Positions 7,694-64,000 of a stretch of DNA of 64,000 nt are shown one piece after another. Within the stretch, counting starts at the first letter, position 1. Each line of letters starts with the position of its first letter. The position numbers and the translations under genes are program-made. The notes under the pieces are model-generated. The model was not told where the DNA came from. It did not search any database and saw only the letters and a list, made by a program, of their open reading frames with translations. This DNA comes from Deltaproteobacteria bacterium. GTDB taxonomy: Bacteria; Myxococcota_A; UBA9042; PHBI01. The stretch lies in assembly GCA_016792665.1 (NCBI GenBank), contig JAEUKJ010000340.1, positions 28,880 through 92,879 on the forward strand, written 5' to 3'.

Positions 7694-7760
7694 CACACGC
7701 CCACGCCTCTGCCAGCACCCCGATGCCGCCGCACGCGGCCTCACTGCCCGGAGACCTCGC

Positions 7761-8954: not shown

Positions 8955-8987
8955 GGCGCTGCTTCTGGCTCGCGCTCGCGGGTCACC

Positions 8988-9650: not shown

Positions 9651-10099
9651 CGTCGCGATCGGTCCTCGCGCTGGCGTGCCTCGTGTTGGGCGCCTGCTCG
9701 AACCTCGATGTCTCCGACCTGAACAACGTCTCGGTGCGACTCGCCCTCGTGACGGGCTCGAGCGTCGGCGTCACCGCGGGTGCCGTGAGCGCCGCCTCGC
9801 GCGACCCCGACCCGGGTCCGATGATCGCCGATCGCCGCGCCCTCGCGACCGATCTCGCGCGCGGCGACGGCCCGTGGGTCAACGACCTCGCCGCGTGGCT
9901 GGCCCTCCCCCAGAGCCTCGTCCCCCAGCTCGGCAAGACCTTGCGCGAGGCCCGCCCCGTGCTCGCCGAGGCACTGGCCGAGCCGCTCTCGGAGTCGGCC
10001 TTCCGCACCCTGCTCGGCGTCACGTTGTGCCGCGACGAGGCACTGCGCTTTCACGCGTGGCGGCGCTTCGATTGCGCCAAGCTCGCGCCCAAGTCCTGA
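9638..10099 (+). CDS. hypothetical lipoprotein, paralogue B (153 aa)
   Basis: Canonical lipoprotein signal MHTVTSRSVLALACLVLGAC. The conserved block LARGDGPWVNDLAAWLALPQSLVPQLG is paralogous to the preceding gene. Confidence 0.55.
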   Translation: MHTVTSRSVLALACLVLGACSNLDVSDLNNVSVRLALVTGSSVGVTAGAVSAASRDPDPGPMIADRRALATDLARGDGPWVNDLAAWLALPQSLVPQLGKTLREARPVLAEALAEPLSESAFRTLLGVTLCRDEALRFHAWRRFDCAKLAPKS

Positions 10100-10158
10100 A
10101 GCAGCTCGAGGCTCACCTCGCGCGGGCCGACGCGACAATCACCTCGAGCGCGCCGACC

Positions 10159-10689
10159 TCAGCCGATCTCCATCAAGAGTGCCCCGCCCTCGACCGAGCC
10201 ACCCTCGGCCACGTGCACGGCCTGGACGACGCCGGCGCGCTTGGCCTTGACCTCGTTCTCCATCTTCATGGCCTCGATGATGAGGACCGGCTGGCCCTTC
10301 TCGACGTGGTCGCCGACCTTGGAGAAGACCTTGACCACGCGCCCCGGCATCGCCACCGACACCGCGCCCGAGCCGGCCCCGTCGTCGCCCGCGGACAGGA
10401 GGGCGTCGAGCTCGCGCCGCGCCTTCACCGCGAAGTCGTGGCCGCTGACCAGGCCGCCGATGTTCACGACGCGCTCGGCCCGGACCTCGGCCCCGACCCA
10501 CGCCGTGACCGTCCGACCGTCCTCGGTGCGCAGCACGCGCTCGCCGTTGTCGGCGCGCACCGCGACGTCGAACACCAGCTCGCGCACGCCCGCCTTGGTC
10601 TCGATCCGGGCGCGGACCTTGTCGCCCTCCCGCACGAGCTCGACCGTCGCCGCCTCATCGTCGATCCACGTGACCCAGCGCGCGTTCAT
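10159..10689 (-). CDS. biotin carboxyl carrier protein-type subunit (biotinyl domain with an N-terminal extension) of an acyl-CoA carboxylase
   Basis: ORF 10159..10740. The ATG at 10689 (MNARW) overlaps the biotin carboxylase stop (ATGA). The C-terminus has the biotinylation motif IEAMKMENEV and a hammerhead fold. Confidence 0.8.
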   Translation of the reverse strand: MNARWVTWIDDEAATVELVREGDKVRARIETKAGVRELVFDVAVRADNGERVLRTEDGRTVTAWVGAEVRAERVVNIGGLVSGHDFAVKARRELDALLSAGDDGAGSGAVSVAMPGRVVKVFSKVGDHVEKGQPVLIIEAMKMENEVKAKRAGVVQAVHVAEGGSVEGGALLMEIG

Positions 10690-46364: not shown

Positions 46365-46448
46365 CCCGAGCGAGCACGCCTCCCATCGCGCGCGCGCTTT
46401 GTGTACTCTGCCTGCGTCGCGGCGGCCGACCGCCGCGCAGGAGCCCCG

Positions 46449-52400: not shown

Positions 52401-55400
52401 ACGCCCATCTCGAACCAGGGCACGGGTGACCAGGGCGTCGACCTCGGCGAGGGCAAGTACCGCTTCTACCGGGTGACCATCCCGGCCGACAACGGCGGCC
52501 TCTTCCGGACCCGCATGGAGGCCATCTCCGGCAACCCGCAGCTCTACATCCGGCGCGGCGCCGCCCCGACCTTGAACAGCATGCCCTACCCCTACGGCTA
52601 CCAGTACATCGACTATCGCGACGAGCGCGAAGGCAGCTCGTACGGGCACTGGGTCACGACCGACACGCGCTACGGGCCCGAGCTCGCCCCCGGCGAGTAC
52701 TGGGTGGCCATCTATGCGCAGGGGTCGAACGTGCGCTACCGCCTCTCGCTGGACGTCGGCGTCGTCCAGGACCTCGCCCTCCGCGGCGGCGCCATCACCG
52801 GGCACGCCCTGGCCGCGGGCGACATGCGCTACTACCGCGTGACCATCCCGCAGTCGTCGACCCAGGCCAACACCGGGACGCCGGTCGACTGGACCCTGAC
52901 GCTGACCCAGCAGAGCGGCGACGCGCTCGTGCTCTTGCGTGAGGACGTCCCGCCCGGCCTCTACACGGCCGTCCCGCAGCCGAACCAGGGCGACTACTAC
53001 CTCCGCGACTGGAACGGCGATCGCAACGGCTACATCTACGGGCTGAACCAGCTCCCGAACCTCGACAACACCGGCCCGAAGACCTTCTCGACCCCGGTCT
53101 TGAAGCCCGACACGACCTACTGGGTCGGGGTCTACGCGCGCACCGACACGGTCTATGATCTCGGCTCGCAGGCCTCTGCCGCGACCCTCAAAGTCGACGC
53201 CACCCTCGCCTACCGCGGCGCCACGCTGGACACGAACGTGCCCGCCGGACAGTCGCGCCTGTATCGGATCGATGTGCCGGCCGATGCCGCGCGCTACCTC
53301 CACACGGCGACGGTCAATGACGGCGTCTGGCTCCAGCTGTCGGCCGGCTATGTGCCTCCGGGCCCGCCGAACCGGACCTACGCGGACTGGACCAACTCGG
53401 GCTACGGCTACGCGTCCAACCTCGACCGCCCCCTCGAAGCACCCGGCGGCTACATCGGCAACTTCCCGTGGGTCGCCAACGAGAGCTACTACCTCGCCGT
53501 CGAGAACACGACCGCCACCACGCAGAACGTGCACGTGGTCTTCGATGGGCGCCCGGCCAACGACGACTCCGACACCGATGGCCTGCCCGACGGCTGGGAG
53601 TACAAGTACTTCGGCGGCCTCTACTACGACGCCACCTCGGACTACGACGGCGACACGCTCAGCAACGGCAGCGAGCTCGCCCTCGGCACTGATCCGACCC
53701 GCCGCGACACCGACAACGACTCGGTCGACGACGGCCTCGAGCTCATCGCTGGCGCCAACCCGCTGCTCGCCGACACCGACCTCGACCAGGTCTGCGACGG
53801 CTCGGACTCGGCGCCGAACGACCCCAACGAGTCGGGCAAGATCATCCGCCTCGTCATGGGTCGCTACGACCGTGGCAGCTACGGCAAGAACTACGGCTCG
53901 AACGAGCACACCACGCGGCTCGCGGCGGTCTTCGCGAAGGACCCCTCGGCCCGGATGCACTGGCTCCACATCCAGGGCTGGGACATCGAGTCCGCCAACG
54001 AGGTCGAGGTCTTCCTGAACGGCGTGTCGCTGGGCTTCCTGCCCGTCGGCGGCAACAACGCCTTGTCGACCCCGGTCCTCTTCATGGTCGACTCGAATGA
54101 CCTCCTGGCCTACGGCGACAACCGCCTCGAGCTCCGCCAGAAGACCAGCGGCGAGACCTGGGGCGCAACCCAGCTCGGCCTCTTCACCTTCGGCGAGAGC
54201 TTCGGCTTCGACCCGACCCAGGCCTACGACACGCGCCATCCCCAGGGCATCGATCTGCGCTGGAAGGGGCTCACCGACTCGTTGCTCGAGCTCCGCGCCT
54301 TCGACCTCGATCGCCCCGACGAGATCAGCGTGACGCTCGATGGCGGCGCCTTCCTCGGCAAGCTGGTCCAGACGGACAACAACGCGTGGACGCCGTACCT
54401 GCAGACACCGTTCGTCGCGGCCGATCACGCAGCCGCCCCGACCTCCGGGTGGCGCATGCTCGCGGTGCGTCCGCGCGCCGACTCGGACGGCTGGCAGTTC
54501 CGGCTGGTCGACCAGCGCCCCATCCTCTCGACCTTCGGGACCGAGCAGAACTCCGGCGAGAACGGGCACGCCCGCGGCGAGGTCCACTTCCTCCTGCCCG
54601 ACGGCAAGCCCGAGCTGCGCGAGCTCGTCCTGCAGTATCGGGTGAGCGACGGCGAGTCGGTCGCCCTCACGCGCACGAGCGGCAAGGCGCTCACCTGGGC
54701 CTCGGCGAACTACTACACGTGGAGCCCGAACACCGCGTCGTTCTCGGCCGCGGGCGCCTCGGACGAGGTCGCCGTCAAGCGCATCGCCTCCGAGCCGCCG
54801 GCCTCGTACGTGGTCTTCGCGGTGGCCGTTCGCTACTACGGCCCCTGCACCGACTTCGACCAGAGCGGGGTCCTCGACTGCGAAGAGGTCTGCGAGGATC
54901 TCGACCAGGACGGCGTCGACGGGCGCGGCCCGCTCTGCGGGACGGGCACCGACTGCGACGACAACAACCCGGGGGTGGGCGCGGCCGACGGCGACGCCGA
55001 CTGCGATGGCGTGCCGGGTCAGATCGACTGCGACGACAACGACCCCGAGGTCACGACGACCTCGGCGACCGACGCCGACTGCGACGGCGTCGTGACGGCT
55101 GACGACTGCGACGACTTCGACCCGACCAACACCCGCAGCCCGGCCGGCGACCTCGACTGCGACGGCGTCGCCGACGGGTCCGACTGCGCGCCGAGCGACC
55201 CGCAGAAGCCGAACTTCGACGCGGACTGCGACGGCACCCCGACCTCCAGCGACTGCAACGACCAGAACCCGAGCCAGCCGTCCAACGACGCCGACTGCGA
55301 CGGCTCGCCGAGCGGCACCGACTGCGACGACAACGACCCGTCGGTCCAGACCTGCCCGACCGGCTGCCTCGACAACGACGGCGACACCCACAGCGGACGC

Positions 55401-56639
55401 ACGGCCAGCTGCCTCGACGGCGACGACTGCAACGACGGCAACGCCACCAGCACCTACCGCGCCATCGACGCGGACTGCGACGGGGTCGTCTCCGCACTCG
55501 ACTGCGACGACGCCAACGCGGCCGTCACGCGCAGCCGCACCGAGGACGGCGACTGCGACGGGGTGCTCGCGGCCGTGGACTGCGACGACACCAACGCGGC
55601 CATCACCAAGGTGCGCGACGCCAACGACGCCGACTGCGACGGGCTGCCGGCCCCCATCGACTGCGACGACCGCGACCCCAGCGACACCCGCTCGCGCGTG
55701 AACGACGCGGACTGCGATGGCATCGCCAAGGCCGTCGACTGCAACGACAACGACGCCGCGGTGACCGCGCTGAACGTCGGCGACCACGACTGCGACGGCA
55801 TCGCCACCGAGCTCGACTGCGACGACCAGGACCCGAACGACACGCGCTCGAAGGCGGGCGACGCCGACTGCGATGGATCGCCGGCGGGCGAGGACTGCGA
55901 CGACCAGGACCCCACGGTCCAGGCCTGCCCGGTGTGCCTCGACGCCGACGAGGACGGGCACTTCGCCGAGAGCGCGACGTGCCAGAAGGGCGACGACTGC
56001 AACGACGGCGACAAGACCTCGACCTGGCGTGAGGTCGACCGGGATTGTGACGGCGTCAAGACCGACGACGACTGCGACGACGACGACGCCGACTCGGCCG
56101 TGGTCGCCGACGACGCGGACTGCGACGGCGTCCCGACCGCCGACGACTGCGACGACGAGGACGCGGGCTTGAACGCGAAGGCCGACGATCAGGACTGCGA
56201 CGGCGTGCGCGGCGACCTCGACAACTGCCCGCAGATGGCCAACACCGACCAGCTCGACAGCGACAAGGACGGGGTCGGCGATGCCTGCGAGGACTGCCTC
56301 GGCGCGGACACCGACGGCGATGGCGTGCCCGACATGTGCGACACGTGCCCGGCGATCTTCGACGACCAGACCGACAGCGACGACGACGGCACGGGTGACG
56401 CGTGCGAGGACAGCGACAGCGACGGCATCCTCGACGCGCGCGACAACTGCCCGGCCGTGGCCAACGGCGACCAGAAGGACAGCGACCACAACGGTGTCGG
56501 CGACGCCTGCGACACGATCATCGTCATCGACAAGAGCGACGGCGGTTGCCAGGGCGCGCTCGGGTCCGTGCTCGGCACGCTCGTGCTCCTCGGCCTGACG
56601 CTCGCGCGACGCCGCGGTCGGTCGTCGCCGTCGGCCTGA
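46449..56639 (+). CDS. giant cell-surface lipoprotein (3396 aa): lipoprotein signal, ~20 PPC-like beta-sandwich domains in a 3x ~370-aa super-repeat, thrombospondin-type-3-like Ca-binding repeats, LamG-like jelly rolls, ~22 MopE-like Cys/Asp repeats, MYXO-CTERM tail
   Basis: ORF 46401..56639. The ATG at 46449 gives MSSLKSFALSGIVALATLAAC. PPC-type blocks of the form [FY]-[RK]-[IV]-x-VP...L...GD-[AV]-D-[LM]-[YFA]-[VI]. Triplicated module WRYFKVxVP...GWDLRL...GRPRMVIRRDDLP..FYTDPCCYP. DTDGDGVPD and DSDKDGVGDACED repeats. Terminal DGGCQGALGSVLGTLVLLGLTLARRRGRS. Confidence 0.8.
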   Translation: MSSLKSFALSGIVALATLAACSSDDAAPTVHTAALLGDSGDPYLLAAPATRSGASAAADQSRFYRIAVPADHQGLRIAVRATAKVDAWVRRGGAQGGALASGADLARHTFFFPQDQVTADSDWWLEVKPRAAATIDVQVEALYARPLTWDDGATLLGTQAATRPANAFGDHLYKINATLARYGAWRNVLRVSAGEADLFLYPGSFPPDWSSWNGTAVGSDAVTLAQPEFQENQVWYLRVRAGSNDANWSLLSGDLFVTDFGALANDAPRTLTYDVGGVAYFKTEAQADTLAWRLRAAGAQLYINDTQAPVPRYGASTWDYRYDDEALLVPSYLTARGYLVAVTGTGTTVSVDSKKHTVIDPLTVGGVTNGFSFTVSNTDDAGFGYRTYKVVVPVDQIAWQVALKPLSGEVDLYVAKERVPSELLNQGLSEIAGVTDTVTLVPPSLSNGVFYVTVKGRAPYSFQLVSGNPTITDIAFVNDPTPVDNGAAFTGLAGWRYYRVPDIESQVGALGWILELENQVAGTQIALRRNAVPGRWNYRDTNTYGQLSYTEHIDHQSALGFLERPNHPADIWYIGIYQPSAALGAFKLRTKVMTATDLTFNGGSLNVSNQTSGRWRYFKVNVPADAQGWDLRLDPVTSGRPHMVVRAELVPGTFGNDPCCYPPIWGRDEWLSGWQWAAYADLTRRPTQYIANPEAYIDESGRILTGGMGNPIRQGVFYIGVSDVWTTPDGVPMSYTLKSRGIGTGATWSLPIQTLAFVNGTATVTGLAPREVRVYKIDVPANAKSWFLELTPTVGDAMMAIRKDVVPNVEAGYSTSDTAYGRTGARRQKNGYELFYRYPEYDKTALEGGTYYVMVGAEGAATAQDSVVRGGTTSFTLKSWGEATITDGVLTTEAPLTFSNQTLRYGEQKAYRFTVPDGVSSMEIRMARSAGNPYMNVTRSGVQATPSQSYAAAEGGHYPAYSDDDIITVQAPAGTYTITVTAQTASGPTPEIGASYGLEITARGESIIALNGGTAAVVDQDSQTWRYFKVTVPEGPLGWDLRLENVVSGRPRMVIRRDDLPIQFYTDPCCYPALPLRTEWQTGWTWAPAGELTQRNYAYYDDQTYQGGAEEYGRRVSMGLGSPLEPGTYYVGISDTYQGQTGDPMSYELVSRGIGIGNDGDGHPWLVQVEDLDFASGTSTKTLDPREHAYYRVQVPEGAKSWELFLEPSLGEAMMAINRAALPSADASSSYGTENGGARRQKTGYEIFYRYPDYNTEAIPSGTFFVGVGAEGQDAYSSSYVGQGPTTFTLRSEGEVPVTVASAPLGGEPIRFAHETLRYGEQKVFQFEVPDGTKSMEVRLENKVGRPYMAIGKSAKIPVPAQYYAAAIGGDYGFAQGEGITTVADPAGTYTVIVSGYWHDQQGAVDSQFDLVIEALGETALVFNGGDVAVTAQPTQTWKYFRVNVPDAKDHGLLGWDLRLDGVTSGRPRMVIRRDDLPDSFYTDPCCYPALPGRGEWQTGWRWAPAGELTQRNYAFYNQVDYTGGEEQYGRRVSMGLGTPLQPGAYIVGVSDTYTSAGPAMTYRIVSRGIGIGLESAEANAIPWSIQVRDLPFGTEVTAQNLAPREHIYYRLQVPEDLESWAAELEPTQGEVMLAVREGALPNADATQSYASDDSYYRMGTRRQKNGREWFYKLPWYDQRTLRGGTFYLAVAGEGENAYSSSYVGLGPSAFKLRTMGPVPIAGGIDNVVATQPLTFANQQLAWGQQKYYRLRVPPTVDAFEVRLANRVGNPYWVAAVEPYFQPKMPQGTTPYYYSAEGGTYPDGANDIADQIVGVTGDVTIAVYSNGSEQVDNSYDLIVTPIAVKNLAWDGGDEAVTLKDRETAYFKVEVPQDCDGVAQAGWIVTQEVTRGQVSVEVRKDTLPRAPTGPASLTTSAKQTVIVPPFLEPGTWYVAVKATGNAEVRITTEEVKEARHWTMPKKNVNATTPGLNHPFFADTGVKDDGTPISNQGTGDQGVDLGEGKYRFYRVTIPADNGGLFRTRMEAISGNPQLYIRRGAAPTLNSMPYPYGYQYIDYRDEREGSSYGHWVTTDTRYGPELAPGEYWVAIYAQGSNVRYRLSLDVGVVQDLALRGGAITGHALAAGDMRYYRVTIPQSSTQANTGTPVDWTLTLTQQSGDALVLLREDVPPGLYTAVPQPNQGDYYLRDWNGDRNGYIYGLNQLPNLDNTGPKTFSTPVLKPDTTYWVGVYARTDTVYDLGSQASAATLKVDATLAYRGATLDTNVPAGQSRLYRIDVPADAARYLHTATVNDGVWLQLSAGYVPPGPPNRTYADWTNSGYGYASNLDRPLEAPGGYIGNFPWVANESYYLAVENTTATTQNVHVVFDGRPANDDSDTDGLPDGWEYKYFGGLYYDATSDYDGDTLSNGSELALGTDPTRRDTDNDSVDDGLELIAGANPLLADTDLDQVCDGSDSAPNDPNESGKIIRLVMGRYDRGSYGKNYGSNEHTTRLAAVFAKDPSARMHWLHIQGWDIESANEVEVFLNGVSLGFLPVGGNNALSTPVLFMVDSNDLLAYGDNRLELRQKTSGETWGATQLGLFTFGESFGFDPTQAYDTRHPQGIDLRWKGLTDSLLELRAFDLDRPDEISVTLDGGAFLGKLVQTDNNAWTPYLQTPFVAADHAAAPTSGWRMLAVRPRADSDGWQFRLVDQRPILSTFGTEQNSGENGHARGEVHFLLPDGKPELRELVLQYRVSDGESVALTRTSGKALTWASANYYTWSPNTASFSAAGASDEVAVKRIASEPPASYVVFAVAVRYYGPCTDFDQSGVLDCEEVCEDLDQDGVDGRGPLCGTGTDCDDNNPGVGAADGDADCDGVPGQIDCDDNDPEVTTTSATDADCDGVVTADDCDDFDPTNTRSPAGDLDCDGVADGSDCAPSDPQKPNFDADCDGTPTSSDCNDQNPSQPSNDADCDGSPSGTDCDDNDPSVQTCPTGCLDNDGDTHSGRTASCLDGDDCNDGNATSTYRAIDADCDGVVSALDCDDANAAVTRSRTEDGDCDGVLAAVDCDDTNAAITKVRDANDADCDGLPAPIDCDDRDPSDTRSRVNDADCDGIAKAVDCNDNDAAVTALNVGDHDCDGIATELDCDDQDPNDTRSKAGDADCDGSPAGEDCDDQDPTVQACPVCLDADEDGHFAESATCQKGDDCNDGDKTSTWREVDRDCDGVKTDDDCDDDDADSAVVADDADCDGVPTADDCDDEDAGLNAKADDQDCDGVRGDLDNCPQMANTDQLDSDKDGVGDACEDCLGADTDGDGVPDMCDTCPAIFDDQTDSDDDGTGDACEDSDSDGILDARDNCPAVANGDQKDSDHNGVGDACDTIIVIDKSDGGCQGALGSVLGTLVLLGLTLARRRGRSSPSA
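54850..56530 (+). repeat. array of ~22 tandem ~24-aa MopE-like repeats (consensus DADCDGVxxxxDCDDxDP...), the last few TSP3-like; a near-identical 12-mer gactgcgacggc recurs at the DNA level
   Basis: Seen directly both in the translation and as recurring gcc/gac-gactgcgacggc-gtc nucleotide blocks. Confidence 0.75.
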
Positions 56640-56687
56640 GCGCGTCCGATCCGTTCCCGGTCCGTCGCGCGTCGGGTTGTGTGACCG

Positions 56688-56712
56688 CCAGGTCAAACGG
56701 AGCGCTATCATC
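56688..56712 (+). terminator. hairpin GGAGCGC-uaucauc-GCGCUCC, 50 nt after the giant gene's stop (no U tract)
   Basis: Seen directly. It may only attenuate transcription, since the next gene starts 55 nt later with its own GGAG RBS. Confidence 0.3.
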
Positions 56713-56766
56713 GCGCTCCGTAAGGCCCGGGCACGGGTCGAACACCGTCCACCGCACGGAGCCTTC

Positions 56767-59700
56767 GTGTCGAAAGAGGAGCCCACGCGGCGACACCCGC
56801 AGACGCCCGGTCGTGTCGCCGCCCTGGCACTGGTGCTCACCCTCGGCACGCTCGCCCGCCCCGCCCGCGCGGCGCTCGACAGCCTCTGCGGCACGACGCT
56901 CACCGCCAATCTGACCCTCGACCACGACGTCGACTGCACGGGCTACACCGGCAACGCTCTGACCATCGGCGCCAGCAACGTCACCGTCGACGGCAACGGG
57001 TTCCGCCTCCTCGCCCCCGACTCCGCCCGCGCCATCTCGATCTCCGGTGGCCGCTCGAACGTCACCGTGCGCAACCTCTCGGTCGAGGGTTGGTGCACCG
57101 GGATCGGCATCTACCTCGACGGCGGCACGGGTCACGTCTTCGAGGACGTCTCCGCCACGGGCCGCTCGACCGGCATCGACGCCCGCAACACCACCAACCT
57201 CACGCTCCGCCGCGTGCGCGCCGACAGCGCCGCGACCAATGGCGTCCTCCTGACCAACGTCACGCGCCCCCTCGTGCTCGAGGGGCTGGTGCTCACCAAC
57301 AACAGCACCGGCCTCCGCCTGAACACCTTCGCCGGCCCGCAGACCATCGACGCCGCCGCCATCGCCGACCTCCGCGGCAGCGACACCGGCATCTGGCTCG
57401 AGGGCACCGTCTCGCAGCTCACCCTCGCCGGCCTCACCCTCGATGGCGCGTCCTACGGCGTCCTCGCCAACACCGCGACCCTCTCCAACGTCACCTTCCG
57501 TGACCTCGACGTCTCGACCACCTTCGGCTCGGGCACCGGCATCGCCGCGCGCGGCTCGAGCCTCGTCTTCGAGCGCATCACCGCCAACCGCCGCTCCACC
57601 GGCATCTCGGTCACCAACGCTTCCGACCTCGTCATCGACGACCTCACCGCCAACGGCGCCATCACCACCGGCCTCGCGCTCTCGACGCTCACCGGCTCGC
57701 TCACCCTGCGCAAGCTCACGCTAGAGGACGACGCCACCGCGCTCTCCATCACGGGCTACGCGCCCGCGAGCCAGTTCGCGATCACCGCGTGGGACCCGCA
57801 GACCGGCGCCGGCACCATCGCCTCCCTCGCCAAGAGCGACACCGGCATCAACCTCGCCACCGTCTCGAACACGCGCCTCGCAGGGCTCACGCTCGACAAC
57901 GCGACCTACGCCATCAACGCCACCTCGACCGCCAACGCCAACCTCCTGTTCGAAGACCTCGACCTCTCCAGCGGCCGCCAGGTCGGCACCGGCCTCGGGC
58001 TCGGCGGGCCAAACCACGTCGTGCGCCGCGTCATCGCGCACCGCCGCGGCTACGGCCTCATCGCCACCTCGACCAGCAACCTCCAGGTCAGCGACTTCAC
58101 CTCCACCGGGTCGAACGAAGGGCTCCGCCTCGCCACCCTCGCCCCGCCGTCGGTGGCCCCGACCTTCCTCCGCCTGAACCTCACCGACAACACGACCGGC
58201 CTCTACCTGCAGGCCGTCTCGACCCCGGCGGTCTTCGATCCCTCGAACCTGATCGACGTCCGCCGAAGCCTCACCGGCATCACCATCGCCGGCGCCTCGG
58301 CCGCCCTCACCTTCCGCGACCTCGCCTTCGACAACCTCACGACCGGCATCAGCGCCAACGGCACCGACCTCGTCTTCCAGCGCGTCGACTTCAGCGGCCC
58401 CGGTCGCGGCACCGGCCTCGCCCTGACCGGCACCCGCGCCACGCTCGACACCGTCACCGCCACCGGCCGCGGCACGGGCTTCAACCTCAGCGTCACCCAG
58501 CTCGTCGTGACCGGCCTCGTCGCCAACCAGTGCTCGACCGGCCTCTCCGTGAACAGCCTCTCCGCCGCGCACACGCCGCCGCTCATGTCGGCGCTCGACC
58601 TCAAGCGCAACAGCGTCGGCCTGTCGATCTCGTCGGTCGCGACCACCGCCGTGATGACCATCGACGGCACCCTCGGCTTCGACGTCAGCGAGTGCCAGAC
58701 CGGCATCGGCGTCTCGTACAGCTCGAATATCCGCTTCGTCGGCCTCACCCTGCCCGCCCTCTATCGCGGCGTCGACGCCACCAGCAACAACTCGGCCCTC
58801 ACCTTCATCGACGTCGACGCCTCGGGCCCGGGCTACAGCACGGCCGCCAACGCCACCGGCCTCGCCCTCGGGGGCGCCAACCACGTGCTCGCCAACATCA
58901 CCGCCAACCGCCGCGCCATCGGCGTCTCGATCGCCTCCGCCAAGGGCGCCTCGATCACCCACCTCGTCGCGCGCGGCGCCACCGACACGGCCCTCAGCCT
59001 GACGGGGGTCGGCCCCAGCGACGCCCCGCTCACCCTGTCGCAGCTCGACCTCCGCGACTCGGGCCTCGGCCTCGACCTGGGTTCGATCACCTACCCGCTG
59101 GTCATCGACCCGAGCCTCGGCCTCGACGTGCGCGACGCGAACGTCGGCATCCGCCTGACGAGCTGCACCGACCTCATCATCCGCAACCTCGCCTTCACCA
59201 CCAACCGCGCGACCGGGGTCTACGCCTACTACAACAACACGCGCCTCACCTTCGAGAACCTCGACGTCTCGGGCGAGGGCGTCGGCACCGGCCTCTACAT
59301 CGGCTACCTGAACAACAACTCGAGCCTGTACTACGGCGGCGTGGACCACGTGGTGCGCAACGTCGTGGCCGACCACCGCAACGTCGGCGTCCACGCCATC
59401 GCTGCCAGCAACCTCACCATCACCGGCCTCACCGCGACCCACGGCGTCACCGGTCTGCGCATCGTCGGCTACACCAACAACCCGGGCTATCTGCCCCCGA
59501 AGCTCACCAACCTCACGCTCAGCGACAACAACACCGGCCTCCTCCTGACCATCGTCAACGGCACCGAGCTCGCCCCGCTCGTCATCGACGGCTACGTGCC
59601 CGCGACCCAGACCGGCGCCATCACCTCGCTCGAGCGCAACGCCATCGGCATCGACGTCAGCTACTCGACGTGGATCCGCTTCCAGGGCTTCTCGATCGGC

Positions 59701-62700
59701 GCGGCGGGGTCGGCCCTCTGGTCCGCCGGTAGCACGGGCATCGTCGCCAACTACAACGCGAACCTCACCTTCCGGAACCTCACCCTGGGCACGACGAGCT
59801 ACGGGATCCACATCCAGTACGGCAACAGCACCTGCACCTTCGACCAGCTCGACCTCTCGGGCCAGGGCACGGGCGTCGGGCTCCAGCTCGGCTACCTCTT
59901 CAACAACGCCGTGACCTACTACGGTGGCGTGAACCACGTGCTGACGCAGATCACCGCGAACCGCCGCGACACCGGGATCCGCTCGGTCGGCTCCTCGAAC
60001 CTCGTCATCAACGGGCTCGTCGCCAAGAACAACGCGTCCCGCGGCCTGCACATCGACGGCTTCACCAACACGACCGGGTTCGTCCCCCCGACCCTGTCCG
60101 GCCTCGTCCTCGACGACAACGCGACCGGCCTGTTCCTGAACAACTTCGGCGGCACGCAGGCGGCCCCGTACGACCTCGGCCCGTCGACGATCGTGTCCAT
60201 CGCCAACTGCGGCACGAATCTCTTGCTCACCGCCATGACCAACCTCCGCGTGCACGACCTGACGCTCGGCGGCCGCAGCTATGGCATCGACGCCAGCGGC
60301 ACCGGCCTCACCTTCGCCGACCTCGACCTCTCGGGCATCGGCCAGGGGATCGGCCTGCGCGTGAGCGGCGCCGACCCGACCCTCGACCGCGTCACCGCCG
60401 ATCGCCGCGACCAGGGCGTCTTCTTCAACATCACCTCGAACCCGAAGGTGCGCGACGTCATCGCGCGCCAGAACAAGTCGGTCGGTCTCCAGTTCACGAC
60501 CACCACCCTGCCCATCACGCTCGAGCGTCTCACCGTGAGCGACAACCTCACGGGCCTCCGCTTCTCGACCGTCAACGGCACGGGCTCGCTCGGCATCGGC
60601 ACGGCCGCCATCACCTCTCATGCGCGATCGGTCACCGCCATCACCCTCAGCTCCGCCCCGGCCGTCACCGTCGACAGCACCGCGCTCGGCCTCACCCCCT
60701 CGGGCGGCAACTTCACGGCGCCGGCCCCGAGCTCCGCGCCGCTCTGCGGCACGACGATCACCGCGAGCCTCGTCCTGACCGCGGACCTCGACTGCAGCGG
60801 CATCACCACCACCGCGCTGACGATCGGCGCCGACAACGTGACCGTCGACGGCGGCCCGAGCCGCTACCGGATCATCGCCCCACGCGCCACGATCGTCATC
60901 AAGAGCACCAACCGCAACAACGTCACCCTGAAGCGCCTCGACCTCTCGGGCACCTGGGCCATGGGCGACGCCATCTCGATCGACGGCGGCACCGGGCACC
61001 GCCTGGAAGACCTGACCCTCGATCGGCGCGACCGCGGCGCCTACTTGAAGAACGTCGGCAACCTCACGGTGACCAACGTCAGCGCGCTCGGCAGCCTCAG
61101 CGCCGGCCTCCACCTCGACACCATCGCCCTCCCACTCACCCTGTCGAACCTCACGCTCCGGGACGGCGCGGCTTATGGCCTGCGCGTCATCGGCTTCAAC
61201 GGCAGTAGCGGCGGCAGCGGCGGCGCGGACTTCACGATCGATGGCCAGAGCTTGAGCGACGTCTCGGGCAACGCGACGTCCATCTACTTCGAGGGCAACG
61301 TCGCGAACGTCGCCGTGGTCGGCCCGATCGCCGGCCTCGACGGGACGACCCAGGCCATCAACGCCTCGACCGTGACCAACGCCTCCCTGACCTTCTCGGG
61401 CCTCGACCTCACCCCGCGCTGGACCACGGGCACCGGCCTCTTCCTGCGCGGTGCGGGTCACCAGCTCGTCGACCTCGTCGCCGACTATCGCGTCACGGCG
61501 CTCGACCTCCGCACCTGCTCGAGCCTCACCGTCGACAGCCCGCGGATCCGCTACGCCTCGACCGAGGCACTGCGGCTGGAGGCCTCGACCACGTTCACGC
61601 TGCGCGACCTCTCGCTCACGCGGAGTGCCATCGGCCTGTCCCTCGTCAACGTCGTCGGCGACGGTACGACGATCGGCCCCTGGAGCCCGCTGAGCGACAC
61701 CGGCGCCATCACGAGCCTCGAAGGCAGTCCCACCGCGATCCAGATCGCTGGCACCTCGAACCTCACCTTCGCCGACCTCACCCTCGACGCCCTGGGCTAT
61801 GGCATCCAGGCCGCGAGCGCCACCAACAGCGGCCTCACCTTCACGCGCCTCGATCTCTCGGGTCGCCAGCACGCCGGCATCGGCCTCTACCTGTCGGGGA
61901 CAAACCACGTCGTCACCGATGTCGTCGCCAACGATCGCGATCGCGGTCTCTACACGACCACGGTCACCAACCTCTCGGTCCGCGGCCTGCGCGTCGACCG
62001 CGCCGTCACGGACGCGGCCTACCTCAACGCGACGACCGCGCCGCTCCTCCTCGAGAACCTGACCCTCACGCGCTCGGCCAGCGCCTTGAACCTGAACAGC
62101 TTCAGCGCCAGCGCGGCCTCGCCGTTCATCATCGACGCGTACGACGGCACGCGCGGTACGCTCGCCAGCGTGGCCGGCAGCCAGTACGGCGTCACCCTGA
62201 CCGCCGTCCAGAACGCCATCGTCCAGGACCTCACCCTGCCCTGCCTCGCCAACGCCGTGCGCGCCGCCTCGGCCACCAACAGCGACCTCCTCTTCCGCCG
62301 CCTCGACGTCTCGGGCACCCGCGGCGCGGGCACGGGCCTCAGCCTCCAGGGCACACGCCTCGTCGTCGACGACGTGACGGCCGACCTCCGCAACACCGGG
62401 GTCTATGCGGTCTCCAGCACGGACCTCGAGCTCCGCCACCTGCGCGCGCGCGGGGCCTATGCGTTCGGCGTCCAGCTCGCCACCCTCACTGGCTCGCTGA
62501 CGCTCGTGGACCTGTCCGTGAACAACAGCGCCGTCGGCTTCTACGTCGCGGGCTACACGGCGCCCCCGGCCACACCGCTGGTCCTCGGCCCCTACCTCCC
62601 GGCCTCCGGCACGGGTGCCTTCGCGTCCACCACCAACTGCGACGAGGCGCCTATCAAGCTGGCCAGCGTGCAGAACGTGCGGCTCGAGAACCTGAGCCTC

Positions 62701-64000
62701 GACGGCACCCAGAACGGCCTCAGCGCCTATCACGCGGGCAACCGCAACATCGTCGTCCAGGACGTCGACACCACCCCGCGCCGGATCGGCGGCACGGGGA
62801 TCTACATCGCGGGCACCGACCCCACCCTCACCCGCGTGAGCTCGACGCTCCGCGGCTACGGAGCCACGGCCGGCTCGGTGAGCAACCTGCGCGTCACCAC
62901 CTTCGTCGCCAATCGCGGCAGCTATGGCCTCTGGCTCCAGTCGACCCCGAACACCCCGGCCAGCTACATCGCCCCCACCCTGTCGGGCCTCGACGTGCGC
63001 AGGAACATCGCCGGCCTCGTCTTCTACAGCTGGGCCCTCCCGACCACCGTCGACACCAGCGCCGGCCTCGACGCGCGCGAGTGCGAGACCGGTGTCTCGG
63101 TCACCAGCAACTCGGCCAACGTGACCCTGCGCGGCCTCACCCTCCGCGACAACCCGACCCAGGCCATCACGCTGAACTCGACCGTCACCGACGTGCGCGT
63201 CGAGGACGTCGACGCGACGGGCCTCGGCCTCGGCACCGGCCTCACCCTGTCGGGCGCCACCAACGTGGTCGTGCGCAACCTCACCGCGGACCGCCGCACC
63301 TATGGGATCTCGGCCAACGCCACGCCCAACCTCGACGTCGACGGCCTGACCGCCCGCTTCGGCGGCACCGGCCTCTACATGCTGAACCTCGGTGCCAGCG
63401 CCATCGCTCCGACGCTGCACGACCTGAACCTCACCGACAACGGCACCGGCCTCTACTTCTACTCGTTCGCCGCCCCCACAACGCTCGGCGCCGCCACCGA
63501 CCTCGACGTCCGCCGCAGCGCCACCGGCGTCTACTTGTACAACTGCATGGACATCACGCTCCAGGACCTGGTTCTCGACAACCCGTCCCGCGGCGTCCAG
63601 GTCGACTACTCGCTGTCGGCACGCGTGACCCTGCGCCGCATCGACGCCTCGGGCACGGGGCGTGGGCGCGGCGTGATGCTGGACGGCACCGGGCACCGCC
63701 TCGAAGACGTCATCGCCGACGACCGCGAGTACGGGGTCTATGCGATCAACGCGGTCGGCCTGGTCGTCAACGGTCTCTGGGTCGACGCCGCCGCCACCGC
63801 GGGCCTCTACCTGACCGGCGTCAGCGCCCCTTCGACCGCGCCCCAGCTCTCGAACCTCCGCCTCACGCGCAGCACCTATGGGATCCAGGGCGCGAACCTG
63901 CGCGTGCCGATGACCTGGAACGCGTCGGTGTTCAGCGATCTCAGCGGCAACGCCACGCCGCTCTACCTGGCCTCGAACGTGGCCGACCTCACGATCCGCG
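56767..64000 (+). CDS. giant secreted right-handed parallel beta-helix (PbH1-type) repeat protein, 3'-partial (>2400 aa)
   Basis: Not in the ORF track because no stop is reached before the window end. The reading frame containing SLCGTTLTANLTLDHDVDCTGYTGNALTIGASNVTVDGNG is open from the GTG at about 56767 (RBS GGAG 5 nt upstream). Signal peptide ...RVAALALVLTLGTLARPARAAL. A ~22-24-aa beta-helix rung periodicity is visible, for example NLTLRRVRADSAATNGVLLTNVTRPLVLEGLVLTNNSTGLRL. The complementary strand has a 6-kb stop-free antisense ORF, as expected for such biased coding. Confidence 0.7.
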   Translation, partial: MSKEEPTRRHPQTPGRVAALALVLTLGTLARPARAALDSLCGTTLTANLTLDHDVDCTGYTGNALTIGASNVTVDGNGFRLLAPDSARAISISGGRSNVTVRNLSVEGWCTGIGIYLDGGTGHVFEDVSATGRSTGIDARNTTNLTLRRVRADSAATNGVLLTNVTRPLVLEGLVLTNNSTGLRLNTFAGPQTIDAAAIADLRGSDTGIWLEGTVSQLTLAGLTLDGASYGVLANTATLSNVTFRDLDVSTTFGSGTGIAARGSSLVFERITANRRSTGISVTNASDLVIDDLTANGAITTGLALSTLTGSLTLRKLTLEDDATALSITGYAPASQFAITAWDPQTGAGTIASLAKSDTGINLATVSNTRLAGLTLDNATYAINATSTANANLLFEDLDLSSGRQVGTGLGLGGPNHVVRRVIAHRRGYGLIATSTSNLQVSDFTSTGSNEGLRLATLAPPSVAPTFLRLNLTDNTTGLYLQAVSTPAVFDPSNLIDVRRSLTGITIAGASAALTFRDLAFDNLTTGISANGTDLVFQRVDFSGPGRGTGLALTGTRATLDTVTATGRGTGFNLSVTQLVVTGLVANQCSTGLSVNSLSAAHTPPLMSALDLKRNSVGLSISSVATTAVMTIDGTLGFDVSECQTGIGVSYSSNIRFVGLTLPALYRGVDATSNNSALTFIDVDASGPGYSTAANATGLALGGANHVLANITANRRAIGVSIASAKGASITHLVARGATDTALSLTGVGPSDAPLTLSQLDLRDSGLGLDLGSITYPLVIDPSLGLDVRDANVGIRLTSCTDLIIRNLAFTTNRATGVYAYYNNTRLTFENLDVSGEGVGTGLYIGYLNNNSSLYYGGVDHVVRNVVADHRNVGVHAIAASNLTITGLTATHGVTGLRIVGYTNNPGYLPPKLTNLTLSDNNTGLLLTIVNGTELAPLVIDGYVPATQTGAITSLERNAIGIDVSYSTWIRFQGFSIGAAGSALWSAGSTGIVANYNANLTFRNLTLGTTSYGIHIQYGNSTCTFDQLDLSGQGTGVGLQLGYLFNNAVTYYGGVNHVLTQITANRRDTGIRSVGSSNLVINGLVAKNNASRGLHIDGFTNTTGFVPPTLSGLVLDDNATGLFLNNFGGTQAAPYDLGPSTIVSIANCGTNLLLTAMTNLRVHDLTLGGRSYGIDASGTGLTFADLDLSGIGQGIGLRVSGADPTLDRVTADRRDQGVFFNITSNPKVRDVIARQNKSVGLQFTTTTLPITLERLTVSDNLTGLRFSTVNGTGSLGIGTAAITSHARSVTAITLSSAPAVTVDSTALGLTPSGGNFTAPAPSSAPLCGTTITASLVLTADLDCSGITTTALTIGADNVTVDGGPSRYRIIAPRATIVIKSTNRNNVTLKRLDLSGTWAMGDAISIDGGTGHRLEDLTLDRRDRGAYLKNVGNLTVTNVSALGSLSAGLHLDTIALPLTLSNLTLRDGAAYGLRVIGFNGSSGGSGGADFTIDGQSLSDVSGNATSIYFEGNVANVAVVGPIAGLDGTTQAINASTVTNASLTFSGLDLTPRWTTGTGLFLRGAGHQLVDLVADYRVTALDLRTCSSLTVDSPRIRYASTEALRLEASTTFTLRDLSLTRSAIGLSLVNVVGDGTTIGPWSPLSDTGAITSLEGSPTAIQIAGTSNLTFADLTLDALGYGIQAASATNSGLTFTRLDLSGRQHAGIGLYLSGTNHVVTDVVANDRDRGLYTTTVTNLSVRGLRVDRAVTDAAYLNATTAPLLLENLTLTRSASALNLNSFSASAASPFIIDAYDGTRGTLASVAGSQYGVTLTAVQNAIVQDLTLPCLANAVRAASATNSDLLFRRLDVSGTRGAGTGLSLQGTRLVVDDVTADLRNTGVYAVSSTDLELRHLRARGAYAFGVQLATLTGSLTLVDLSVNNSAVGFYVAGYTAPPATPLVLGPYLPASGTGAFASTTNCDEAPIKLASVQNVRLENLSLDGTQNGLSAYHAGNRNIVVQDVDTTPRRIGGTGIYIAGTDPTLTRVSSTLRGYGATAGSVSNLRVTTFVANRGSYGLWLQSTPNTPASYIAPTLSGLDVRRNIAGLVFYSWALPTTVDTSAGLDARECETGVSVTSNSANVTLRGLTLRDNPTQAITLNSTVTDVRVEDVDATGLGLGTGLTLSGATNVVVRNLTADRRTYGISANATPNLDVDGLTARFGGTGLYMLNLGASAIAPTLHDLNLTDNGTGLYFYSFAAPTTLGAATDLDVRRSATGVYLYNCMDITLQDLVLDNPSRGVQVDYSLSARVTLRRIDASGTGRGRGVMLDGTGHRLEDVIADDREYGVYAINAVGLVVNGLWVDAAATAGLYLTGVSAPSTAPQLSNLRLTRSTYGIQGANLRVPMTWNASVFSDLSGNATPLYLASNVADLTIR

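What the first reader, a model, noticed from the sequence alone, without database searches (positions are those of the whole stretch)
56767..64000. Adjacent giant beta-helix protein with a ~1.3-kaa internal mega-duplication
Immediately downstream (127-bp gap, same strand) is a gene of more than 7.2 kb whose product is one continuous right-handed parallel beta-helix. The N-terminal module (LCGTT.T..L.L..D.DC.G...ALTIGA.NVTVDG) reappears almost identically at about nt 60730, and its DGGTGH..ED submotif recurs again at about 63690. The gene is therefore built from super-repeats of roughly 3.9 kb. Together with the upstream gene this forms about 17.5 kb devoted to two giant secreted proteins, plausibly a co-expressed fibre/adhesin pair.
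Basis: partly seen in the sequence, partly recalled or inferred. Interest (0 to 1): 0.65.

Follow-up and report, generated by a model that had tools for sequence, protein, structure and literature searches.

The report
Giant two-rod beta-helix surface protein
This is a real gene for a roughly 3,150-residue exported protein from an uncultured myxobacterium, built as two long beta-helix rods joined end to end, most likely a cell-surface fibre, and it belongs to a small unnamed family whose conserved partner is a downstream lipoprotein, not the giant gene upstream.

Summary
The ORF from 56767 to the window end is real. It is open for all 2,411 codons and has GC3 of 0.96. An independently assembled contig, 98.35% identical, continues it to 3,149 aa.

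The product is a right-handed parallel beta-helix: Pfam Beta_helix E 3e-64, and an AlphaFold model of the mid-protein junction with pLDDT 94.5.

The repeats are hierarchical. About six coils make a 146-aa unit. A cysteine-containing cap plus about eight units make a rod, and there are two rods.

The second cap is at nt 60742, 3,858 nt after the first. It is 51% identical to the first cap as protein, not "almost identical".

The rod duplication is genuine but ancient. All 18 homologues have exactly two caps, and unit subtypes run in the same order in both rods.

The third DGTGH..ED motif belongs to an ordinary unit. It does not start a third super-repeat.

The upstream giant gene is a different kind of protein. 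It is absent next to B homologues in seven other loci.

The conserved neighbour is a roughly 400-aa lipoprotein gene that overlaps or directly abuts the stop codon. It lies beyond this window.

Homologues with a MYXO-CTERM tag lack that lipoprotein. This suggests the lipoprotein anchors the fibre in trans. That step, and any adhesive function, are inferred and not shown.

The parts
56640..56766 (+). 127-bp intergenic spacer between upstream gene A and gene B. It contains a 9-bp GC-rich hairpin and a GGAG Shine-Dalgarno-like motif just before the GTG start.
   Evidence: The sequence was read. The RNA fold gives -63.5 kcal/mol, z = -3.0 against shuffles. No sigma-70 promoter or T-tract terminator was found. 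Its role, whether terminator, stabiliser or none, is unresolved.
56767..64000 (+). Gene B, 5' 77% of the CDS (aa 1-2411 of about 3,149). It runs off the end of the window.
   Evidence: The ORF is open for 2,411 codons with GC3 of 0.96. Its 98%-identical orthologue P0001 is 3,149 aa. Window 46767-64000 aligns to L001 1-17234 at 98.35%.
56767..56871 (+). Sec-type signal peptide (aa 1-35: MSKEEPTRRHPQTPGRVAALALVLTLGTLARPARA|A).
   Evidence: Identified by inspection of the translation: a basic n-region, a hydrophobic core and an A-x-A site. It is not a lipobox, because Leu sits at -1 of Cys41. No signal-peptide predictor was available.
56872..57099 (+). Cap module 1 (aa 36-111): LCGTT..L.L..D.DC ... 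ALTIGA.NVTVDG, with two conserved Cys 17 residues apart.
   Evidence: Found by regex and phmmer mapping. It is present at the N-terminus of all 18 homologues. The same module starts hundreds of other beta-helix proteins.
57100..60693 (+). Rod 1: eight units of about 146 aa, each about six beta-helix coils. Units start at nt 57100, 57532, 57985, 58408, 58852, 59320, 59914 and 60346. Unit 6 carries an extra third of a unit.
   Evidence: An iterated unit HMM gives per-unit E-values of 1e-35 to 1e-52.
60694..60741 (+). Pro/Ser/Ala-rich connector TPSGGNFTAPAPSSAP (aa 1310-1325) between the rods.
   Evidence: In the AlphaFold model the pLDDT here is 90-95, and pTM is 0.89 for the whole 510-aa junction. 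This suggests an ordered joint, not a floppy linker.
60742..60963 (+). Cap module 2 (aa 1326-1399), an internal copy of cap 1.
   Evidence: It is 38/75 identical to cap 1 and 77% identical over 111 nt of DNA (family D20). A second cap is present at aa 1100-1340 in all 18 homologues.
60964..64000 (+). Rod 2: units starting at nt 60964, 61429, 61876, 62329, 62791, 63232 and 63664. The last is cut by the window end. The orthologue adds one partial unit before the helix ends.
   Evidence: Shown by the unit HMM, the AlphaFold model of aa 1194-1703 (pLDDT 94.5, all-beta coil pattern) and Foldseek hits, all to right-handed beta-helix proteins.
63682..63708 (+). It is the start of unit 7 of rod 2, not the start of a third super-repeat.
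   Evidence: Every unit starts with G..G..H.v..v.A..R..G. The unit-7 profile is most like the first unit of rod 1, but no cap precedes it.
46401..56639 (+). Context only: upstream gene A (3,412 aa). It has a lipoprotein signal peptide, repeated PPC-like beta-sandwich modules, DCDD/TSP3-like repeats and a MYXO-CTERM-like tail. It is not part of a conserved pair with B.
   Evidence: Pfam finds only PPC. There is a partial MtsC/MYXO-CTERM match at the C-terminus. It is absent next to B homologues in loci L002, L003, L005, L007, L079, L081 and L082.

Best explanation
Gene B encodes a Sec-exported, cell-surface structural fibre.

Shown:
- The polypeptide folds into a right-handed parallel beta-helix.
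- It is organised hierarchically. Coils of about 23-24 aa form six-coil units of about 146 aa. A disulfide-type cap plus about eight units form a rod. Two rods are joined by an ordered junction.
- The family keeps this layout and nearly the same unit count.
- The two rods descend from an ancient duplication of a whole rod that was already differentiated.

Inferred from the 98%-identical orthologue:
- The helix is followed by three PKD domains, four Cys/Asp-rich Ca-binding-type repeats and a small Cys-rich tail.

Inferred from comparative genomics:
- The tail docks onto the roughly 400-aa lipoprotein encoded by the gene that overlaps or directly abuts the stop codon. The lipid-anchored partner then tethers the fibre to the outer membrane.
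- Sister proteins that carry their own MYXO-CTERM lipid-anchor tag do without the partner.
- With 4.8 Angstrom per coil (textbook value), each rod would be about 24 nm. The N-terminal tip would then be held about 50 nm or more from the membrane.

Speculative:
- The purpose is adhesion, spacing or matrix contact, in the manner of other beta-helix adhesins.
For: Coding and full length.

Beta-helix fold:
- Pfam hits.
- AF2 model with pLDDT 94.5 and pTM 0.89.
- Foldseek, where all 24 hits at E<=1e-3 are right-handed beta-helix proteins, including the adhesin PfbA.

Hierarchy and conservation:
- Unit HMM and identity matrix.
- 261 units with G8, R21 and G24 more than 90% conserved.
- Two caps in 18/18 homologues.
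- Unit counts of 8/7-8 in 13 homologues and 7/6 in 5.

Ancient rod duplication:
- R1u1 and R2u1 are reciprocal best matches.
- R1u2 matches R2u2-4, and R1u4/5 match R2u5/6.
- Self-identity at offsets 1297 and 1448 exceeds that at the neighbour offset of 151.

Exported, surface location:
- Signal peptide.
- Four homologues end in MYXO-CTERM tags. This tag is shown experimentally to give surface anchoring of TraA by myxosortase (PMC11980579).
- P0003 carries Ca_tandemer adhesin repeats above the NCBIfam cutoff.

Partner:
- A lipoprotein gene overlaps or directly abuts the stop codon after P0001, P0002, P0009, P0016 and P0018.
- It is absent after the MYXO-CTERM homologues P0003, P0010 and P0007.
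- Of 18 assessable loci with a full-length lipoprotein, 15 have a tail-bearing gene directly upstream and 1 has it directly downstream.
- The cargo ranges from 470 aa to over 3,300 aa and includes non-beta-helix proteins.
Against: - Nothing here shows localisation, binding or expression.
- The tail and the lipoprotein lie outside the window and are known only from a near-identical contig.
- P0008 has a tail-like C-terminus but no lipoprotein downstream.
- Two full-length lipoprotein loci lack a tail-bearing neighbour.
- The lipoprotein model is poor (pLDDT 51.5), and no complex could be modelled.
- The best structural neighbours are polysaccharide depolymerases, so a catalytic or glycan-binding role is not excluded.
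- The relative orientation of the two rods could not be measured, because no coordinates were returned.
Confidence: 0.55

Rival explanations
1. The protein is a polysaccharide-active enzyme, either a lyase, hydrolase or epimerase or a processive glycan binder. The beta-helix groove would bind and cut a prey or matrix polymer, as in phage tailspike depolymerases and alginate epimerases.
For: The top Foldseek hits are a K1 capsule lyase, phage depolymerases, a fucoidan lyase, GH87, AlgE4/6 and AlgG. There are Pfam NosD and Pect-lyase_RHGA_epim hits. Each unit has a conserved His/Arg pair (H11 in 67%, R21 in 93%) that would form a periodic surface site.
Against: TM-scores are only 0.11-0.33 at 8-13% identity, which is fold-level similarity only. 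No PDB sequence match was found. No enzyme family reaches its cutoff in NCBIfam. Fifteen near-equivalent units with no unique insert or groove-forming loop fit a structural rod better than one active site.
Confidence: 0.13
2. The protein is a contact-dependent or polymorphic toxin. The beta-helix would be a delivery stalk like CdiA/FHA, the C-terminal tail a toxin, and the downstream lipoprotein its immunity protein.
For: The layout is a giant filamentous beta-helix protein followed by a tightly coupled small gene. The same tail-plus-partner module is attached to varied upstream proteins.
Against: No TPS, Rhs, PT-HINT or toxin domain is detected in Pfam. The tail is only about 50-60 aa and is conserved, not polymorphic (alignment). 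The partner is a conserved roughly 400-aa Cys-rich lipoprotein with a large paralogue family. In sister proteins a MYXO-CTERM anchor replaces the tail, which fits anchoring and not toxicity. No TpsB gene is adjacent.
Confidence: 0.07
3. B and the upstream giant gene A form one co-expressed two-component surface structure specific to this lineage.
For: The genes share a strand and are separated by 127 bp with no recognisable sigma-70 promoter or T-tract terminator. The adjacency is kept in the 98%-identical contig. Both products are exported, and A has a MYXO-CTERM-like tail.
Against: The adjacency is seen only in one very close relative. Seven other B-homologue loci have unrelated upstream genes. 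The spacer folds into a strong hairpin that could terminate or punctuate transcription. A shares no domains with B except generic Asp/Cys-rich repeats.
Confidence: 0.15
4. The duplication is an assembly artefact from a mis-joined or duplicated contig, or the gene is a decaying pseudogene.
For: None beyond the repetitive nature of the gene.
Against: The two caps are only 77% identical over 111 nt, and no long high-identity DNA repeats exist. An independent assembly matches at 98.35% with 4 gaps over 17.2 kb. All 18 homologues share the layout. The ORF has 2,411 codons without a stop and GC3 of 0.96.
Confidence: 0.01

Closest known systems
Right-handed parallel beta-helix (PbH1 / Pfam Beta_helix PF13229, NosD PF05048; pectate-lyase-like fold)
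   Same: It matches in sequence above the gathering thresholds. The predicted three-stranded coil fold is the same. All structural neighbours belong to this fold.
   Different: It has about 100 coils against 8-15 in the solved enzymes. It has a strict six-coil super-repeat, two cap-initiated rods in one chain, and no recognisable catalytic family. It has no nos-cluster context, so it is not a NosD.
Beta-helix adhesins: PfbA of Streptococcus pneumoniae (4mr0), and autotransporter/TpsA passengers such as pertactin, Ag43, HMW1 and FHA
   Same: A rigid beta-helical rod is displayed on the cell surface. PfbA is among the Foldseek hits.
   Different: B has no LPXTG motif, no C-terminal beta-barrel translocator and no N-terminal TPS domain. 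It is far longer. Anchoring appears to use a separate lipoprotein or, in sister proteins, MYXO-CTERM.
MYXO-CTERM surface proteins of Myxococcota (TraA, MtsC, CglD; sorted by myxosortase MrtX, PMC11980579)
   Same: The phylum is the same. Four family members (P0003, P0007, P0010, P0013) end in a Cys motif, a TM helix and an Arg-rich tag. The 3xPKD stalk of P0001 matches part of the myxosortase-dependent M36 peptidase model.
   Different: The window protein's orthologue has no such tag. It ends in a soluble Cys-rich tail and is followed by a lipoprotein gene.
Giant repeat adhesins anchored at one end (RTX adhesins such as LapA, MpIBP and SiiE; Ca_tandemer proteins)
   Same: The overall logic is shared: a very long rigid extender built from tandem repeats, Ca-binding-type repeats and one terminal anchor. 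P0003 actually contains Ca_tandemer repeats.
   Different: The extender here is a beta-helix, not Ig-like beads. No T1SS signal or RTX repeats were detected in B.

Membership tests
Pfam Beta_helix (PF13229), right-handed parallel beta-helix repeat | Sequence match above the gathering score | tested here: met
   215.7 bits against a cutoff of 25.9, in 11 stretches, E 3.4e-64.
Pfam Beta_helix (PF13229), right-handed parallel beta-helix repeat | Three-stranded coils stacked into a right-handed helix | tested here: met
   The AF2 model of aa 1194-1703 has pLDDT 94.5 and a short-strand coil pattern. Foldseek hits are exclusively proteins of this fold.
NosD (nitrous-oxide reductase maturation protein) | Match to the NosD family model at its curated cutoff, plus nos gene-cluster context | tested here: not met
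   The Pfam NosD domain is hit (101.5 bits). No NCBIfam model, including TIGR04247, is reached by the window protein. The neighbours are a giant PPC-repeat protein and, downstream in L001, a lipoprotein, with no nos genes.
MYXO-CTERM sorted surface proteins | C-terminal tripartite tag: invariant-Cys motif, transmembrane helix, Arg-rich end | tested here: not met
   The orthologue P0001 ends ...VITCDELDGVGLVTPITDTTACE with no TM helix or Arg cluster. The tag is present by inspection in the homologues P0003, P0007, P0010 and P0013 and in upstream gene A.
Type V secretion passengers (autotransporter / TpsA-CdiA) | C-terminal beta-barrel translocator, or N-terminal TPS domain with a TpsB neighbour | tested here: not met
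   No such Pfam domains occur in the window protein, in P0001 or in any homologue. No TpsB-like neighbour occurs in nine loci.
Polymorphic toxin systems | Variable C-terminal toxin domain with a cognate small immunity gene | tested here: not met
   The tail is about 60 aa and conserved across 12 members. The partner is a conserved lipoprotein of about 400 aa. No toxin domain is detected.
Polysaccharide lyases / GH28-type hydrolases / C5-epimerases on the beta-helix fold | Family-specific catalytic residues in a substrate groove | tested here: inconclusive
   Only fold-level similarity was found: TM 0.11-0.33 at 8-13% identity. No sequence match to any PDB chain was found. Catalytic geometry could not be inspected without coordinates.
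The unnamed two-rod family defined here (P0001-P0018, P0024-P0027) | N-terminal cap, 7-8 units, an internal second cap, then 6-8 units, a conserved helix end with the NYWRS motif, and PKD domains | tested here: met
   The window protein has both caps, 8 units in rod 1 and 7 in rod 2 up to the window end. It is 98% identical to P0001, which has the remaining features. Only about 13 full-length representatives exist among 1.84 billion proteins.

The most novel reading that the evidence does not exclude
The small Cys-rich C-terminal tail (consensus ..G-T-I-R-C..x..C-D..L-x-V-Y-x-x-L-x-C-P) and the adjacent lipoprotein of about 400 aa (lipobox Cys, 15 further conserved Cys, C-terminal CCxxPCC) would form a previously undescribed two-gene surface-anchoring module in uncultured Myxococcota. 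The lipoprotein would act as a dedicated lipid anchor supplied in trans. It would be functionally interchangeable with the cis-acting MYXO-CTERM tag and usable by unrelated cargo, including giant beta-helix fibres, DUF11 proteins and MopE-motif proteins. On this reading the window gene is one of its largest cargoes.
Probability: 0.35. Interest if true: 0.6.

Novelty: new member of a known kind. Interest (0 to 1): 0.38.

Why it matters
By itself this is one more very large repeat protein on a bacterial surface, which is a known kind of thing. Two aspects are worth keeping.

First, the architecture is unusually regular and unusually conserved. The count of two caps and 8+7 or 7+6 units holds across proteins only 28-44% identical. 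That implies selection on rod length or geometry, and it makes the family a clean natural model for how long beta-helices are started, stacked and joined.

Second, the comparative data expose a recurrent tail-plus-lipoprotein gene pair that alternates with MYXO-CTERM. If this pair is an anchoring device, it would add a new route for displaying proteins on the myxobacterial outer membrane.

Both points can be tested with standard biochemistry on fragments.

Tried and rejected
- Whole-protein self-BLAST returned only the trivial self hit. I replaced it with chunked BLAST and an iterated unit HMM.
- A raw unit-by-unit identity matrix within this one protein showed no elevated rod-to-rod register, which at first argued against a mega-duplication. 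Position-specific profiles from 13 homologues and ungapped offset statistics reversed that conclusion.
- The PDB sequence search found nothing.
- Literature searches for MYXO-CTERM plus beta-helix, and for giant beta-helix proteins in Myxococcota, found nothing relevant to this family.
- The AlphaFold model of the lipoprotein was too poor to search with: pLDDT 51.5, with only aa 30-130 a confident beta-sandwich.
- A tail HMM at E<=1e-3 recovered only close relatives. Divergent tails had to be recognised by inspecting ORF ends.
- Lipoprotein status for B itself was rejected. Cys41 is preceded by Leu and is part of the cap, which recurs internally.
- Tat export was considered and rejected. An RR pair is present, but there is no Tat consensus and the cargo is implausible for Tat.
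- A simple clustering of the junction region did not separate the MYXO-CTERM homologues cleanly from the lipoprotein-partnered ones. The number of anchor swaps is therefore unknown.
Full report

The window is about 70% G+C, so long spurious ORFs are common. An antisense ORF of 1,991 aa overlaps the region. Codon-position composition settles the strand. The + strand frame from 56599 to 63999 has GC3 of 0.96 and GC2 of 0.53. The upstream + strand ORF (46365-56639) has GC3 of 0.95.

Translation from the GTG at 56767 runs for 2,411 codons without a stop to the window end. The start is preceded by GGAG. It gives a classical signal peptide, MSKEEPTRRHPQTPGRVAALALVLTLGTLARPARA|A. The gap to the upstream stop is 127 bp.

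Pfam reports Beta_helix in 11 stretches (E 3.4e-64), NosD (5.9e-29) and Pect-lyase_RHGA_epim (4.6e-13). NCBIfam has no family for the protein.

- LCGTT... is at nt 56884 and 60742.
- DGGTGH..ED is at nt 57118 and 60982.
- DGTGHRLED is at nt 63682.

**2. How long is the protein, and is the assembly sound?**

A search of 5.8 billion proteins found 18 relatives. P0001 is 98% identical over the whole query and is 3,149 aa long. The other 17 are 28-44% identical and 2,597-4,182 aa long. Those that carry a source name come from MAGs labelled Myxococcota or Deltaproteobacteria.

The contig that encodes P0001 (L001, an independent Logan assembly) aligns to window 46767-64000 at 98.35% identity over 17,236 nt with only four gaps.

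Within the gene there are no long high-identity DNA repeats. The two cap regions are 77% identical over 111 nt. All other repeat families are 60-80% identical over less than 110 nt.

There is no early stop, and there is no assembly artefact.

**3. Anatomy**

On the window protein completed with the P0001 tail, the layout is:
- Signal peptide: aa 1-35.
- Cap 1: aa 36-111.
- Eight units, starting at aa 112, 256, 407, 548, 696, 852, 1050 and 1194.
- A Pro/Ser/Ala connector: aa 1310-1325.
- Cap 2: aa 1326-1399.
- Units starting at aa 1400, 1555, 1704, 1855, 2009, 2156 and 2300, plus a partial unit at 2445.

The window ends inside the unit that starts at aa 2300.

The consensus over 261 units from 18 proteins is GtGl.L.G.gHtl.dVtA..R.tGV...GL.L...PlTL..L.L...tGL.L ... 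TGi.L....vTv.gLtLdg...Gi.A....N..LtF.dLDvS. G8, R21 and G24 are more than 90% conserved. This corresponds to about six coils of 22-24 residues. The first coil carries a signature found only once per unit.

In P0001 the helix ends near aa 2560-2700, around a conserved insert and an NYWRS motif. It is followed by three PKD/K319L-like domains, four CGCG/DxDxDG repeats and a Cys-rich tail of about 60 aa. So the whole product is not one beta-helix, although everything inside the window is.

**4. Structure**

I modelled aa 1194-1703: the last unit of rod 1, the connector, cap 2 and two units of rod 2. The alignment held 12 sequences. The AlphaFold2 model has mean pLDDT 94.5 and pTM 0.89. It shows the short-strand pattern of a beta-helix throughout. 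pLDDT is 90-95 across the connector.

The junction is therefore predicted to be ordered. The rods probably have a fixed relative orientation. I could not measure it, because coordinates are not returned and two fold libraries were unavailable.

Foldseek against the PDB gives only right-handed beta-helix proteins. These include a capsule lyase, phage tailspike depolymerases, AlgE/AlgG epimerases, GH28, GH87 and the pneumococcal adhesin PfbA. TM-scores are 0.11-0.33 at 8-13% identity. The fold is confirmed, but no specific family is.

**5. Is there a mega-duplication?**

Within this one protein, units are 21-45% identical in all pairings, with no obvious rod-to-rod register. Three further results show an old duplication of a whole rod.

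(a) Every one of the 18 homologues has exactly two caps, the second at aa 1100-1340.

(b) Profile-profile comparison of position-specific unit alignments from 13 proteins gives a collinear pattern:
- R1u1 and R2u1 are reciprocal best matches (240/242).
- R1u2 matches R2u2, R2u3 and R2u4 (246-254).
- R1u4 and R1u5 match R2u5 and R2u6 (240-261).

(c) Ungapped self-identity peaks at offsets 1448 (0.155) and 1297 (0.132). Both exceed the neighbouring-unit offset 151 (0.120) and the shuffled background of 0.084 +/- 0.007.

The array was thus already differentiated when it was doubled, and the doubling predates the family.

Its profile is closest to the post-cap subtype (224 to R1u1). It has no cap, and the helix ends one and a half units later. 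It is not a third 3.9-kb copy.

Unit numbers are strikingly stable. Rod 1 / rod 2 counts are 8/7-8 in 13 proteins and 7/6 in five, and are never mixed.

**6. Family size**

An exhaustive HMM search used the junction profile against 1.84 billion cluster representatives. It gives 3,517 hits at E<=1e-3 and 52 at E<=1e-30. Only about 13 full-length proteins, plus fragments, match across the whole junction.

The cap region alone (profile positions about 125-285) matches the N-termini of hundreds of other beta-helix proteins. It also matches internal sites in other giants, for example P0034 (6,361 aa) at 5059-5183 and P0037 (7,114 aa) at 4747-4913. Cap-initiated beta-helix modules concatenated in one chain are therefore a more general design.

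**7. Neighbours**

Upstream gene A has a lipoprotein signal peptide (LAAC), many PPC-like beta-sandwich repeats, DCDD/TSP3-like repeats and a MYXO-CTERM-like end, GGCQGALGSVLGTLVLLGLTLARRRGRSSPSA. It is not a beta-helix.

An A-like gene precedes B only in the 98%-identical contig. The loci of P0002, P0003, P0009, P0016, P0010, P0018 and P0008 have unrelated upstream genes.

The 127-bp spacer has no sigma-70-type promoter or T-tract terminator. It does fold into a strong hairpin structure, z = -3.0. Co-transcription is undecided.

What is conserved lies downstream, just beyond the window. An ORF of 399-428 aa overlaps or directly abuts the stop codon of P0001, P0002, P0009, P0016 and P0018. Its features are:
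- a lipobox Cys;
- 15 further invariant Cys;
- a C-terminal CCxxPCC;
- no Pfam or NCBIfam match.

**8. Tail, lipoprotein and MYXO-CTERM**

Family members fall into two classes by their C-termini.

Class I ends in a small Cys-rich tail, ...GTIRC...x...CD...L.VY..L.CPG. Class II (P0003, P0007, P0010, P0013) instead has extra Ig-like/Ca_tandemer repeats and a MYXO-CTERM tag.

Five of six class I loci have the lipoprotein gene. P0008, with a divergent tail, does not. None of three class II loci has it.

I scanned species-representative genomes and metagenomes with the lipoprotein alignment. This gave 70 and 66 loci. In the genome set the 70 loci come from only six genomes, so the family is large and paralogous.

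Twenty loci have a hit that reaches the CCxxPCC end, and 18 of these can be assessed:
- 15 have a tail-bearing gene immediately upstream.
- 1 (L048) has it immediately downstream.
- 2 have none.

Some of these loci are the same contigs as the protein-derived ones, so the count is not fully independent.

The tail-bearing cargo is not always a beta-helix. Two are DUF11 proteins of 591 and 1,173 aa. One is a MopE-motif protein of 1,615 aa. Others are 470 and 924 aa.

MYXO-CTERM is experimentally tied to cleavage by myxosortase and to cell-surface anchoring of TraA (PMC11980579). The simplest reading is that the tail docks onto the lipoprotein, which supplies in trans the lipid anchor that MYXO-CTERM supplies in cis.

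This is inference from gene association only. The lipoprotein model was poor (pLDDT 51.5), and no complex could be modelled.

**9. Mechanism and rivals**

*Best explanation (0.55).* B is a Sec-exported, surface-tethered rigid fibre. Using the textbook rise of 4.8 Angstrom per coil, cap plus eight six-coil units gives about 24 nm per rod and about 50 nm for two collinear rods. The anchor is at the C-terminal end and the N-terminal cap is distal. Adhesion or spacing is the likely purpose, by analogy with beta-helix adhesins. It is not shown.

*Rivals:*
- A polysaccharide-active enzyme or lectin (0.13). There is fold similarity only, and no catalytic family is matched.
- A CdiA-like toxin with lipoprotein immunity (0.07). 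There is no TPS or toxin domain, and the tail is conserved and replaceable by an anchor tag.
- A lineage-specific A-B complex (0.15). The adjacency is not conserved.
- An artefact (0.01). This is refuted.

**10. Novelty and verdict**

The fold and the general idea of a giant repeat surface protein are well known. The family itself is unnamed and rare. It has a notably regular three-level repeat hierarchy and a conserved two-rod plan. I file it as a new member of a known kind, with moderate interest.

The most novel reading the data allow is the tail-lipoprotein trans-anchoring module. It rests on sequence outside this window and needs an interaction test.

Noticed in passing
L048:6595-10552 (JACKFA010000001.1, MAG HK-STAS-MYXO-48): The gene order is reversed here. 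The lipoprotein homologue (6595-7881) comes first and overlaps a 924-aa ORF (7778-10552). That ORF ends in the same Cys-rich tail (...FKSFRCYYDAGTGIVSCETDGDGQLVLYDPICGG). The pairing is kept although the order differs.
   Followed up: partly
Loci L009-L078 (six GTDB genomes) and L083-L148 (metagenomes): The N-terminal 300 aa or so of the lipoprotein is a hugely expanded paralogous domain. There are 70 loci in only six uncultured Myxococcota genomes. It is often fused to longer C-terminal regions, and it has no Pfam or NCBIfam model.
   Followed up: partly
Homologues P0001-P0018 (protein coordinates): Unit numbers in the two rods co-vary. They are 8 with 7-8, or 7 with 6, and never mixed, in proteins only 28-44% identical to the window protein. 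This hints at a constraint on matched rod length. Common descent of the short forms was not excluded.
   Followed up: no
window:46401-56639 (+): Upstream gene A (3,412 aa) is itself unusual. It has a lipoprotein signal peptide plus a MYXO-CTERM-like tail, which gives it potential anchors at both ends. It has three large internal repeats of PPC-like modules with CCYP motifs and a long run of DCDD.DP repeats. Pfam recognises only one PPC domain.
   Followed up: partly
window:56640-56766: The A-B spacer folds far better than shuffled sequence: -63.5 kcal/mol, z = -3.0. It has a 9-bp GC hairpin (CGGAGCGCU...AGCGCUCCG) but no T tract.
   Followed up: no
window:43722-46364 (+): The gene ending 37 nt before gene A encodes an S9 prolyl-oligopeptidase-family serine peptidase with an N-terminal beta-propeller (Peptidase_S9, E 2e-36). 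A link to the giant proteins was not examined.
   Followed up: no
P0034 (6,361 aa) aa 5059-5183; P0037 (7,114 aa) aa 4747-4913; P0047, P0049, P0059: The cap module also occurs deep inside other, unrelated giant beta-helix proteins. Multi-rod chains restarted by internal caps may therefore be widespread.
   Followed up: no
P0001 aa 2621-2947; P0003 aa 3120-3550: The 3xPKD stalk matches part of the NCBIfam model for myxosortase-dependent M36 metallopeptidases (229 bits, far below the 1500 cutoff). This suggests a shared stalk cassette among Myxococcota surface proteins. P0003 carries Ca_tandemer adhesin repeats above the cutoff.
   Followed up: no
L090:3739-6785 (Ga0209181_10012961): A full-length lipoprotein homologue has no tail-bearing gene upstream. 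It is followed by an ORF that begins with beta-helix units (...GLRFEHLDVSGFGAG...NVTANGRYYGAYF). This may be another rearranged arrangement.
   Followed up: no
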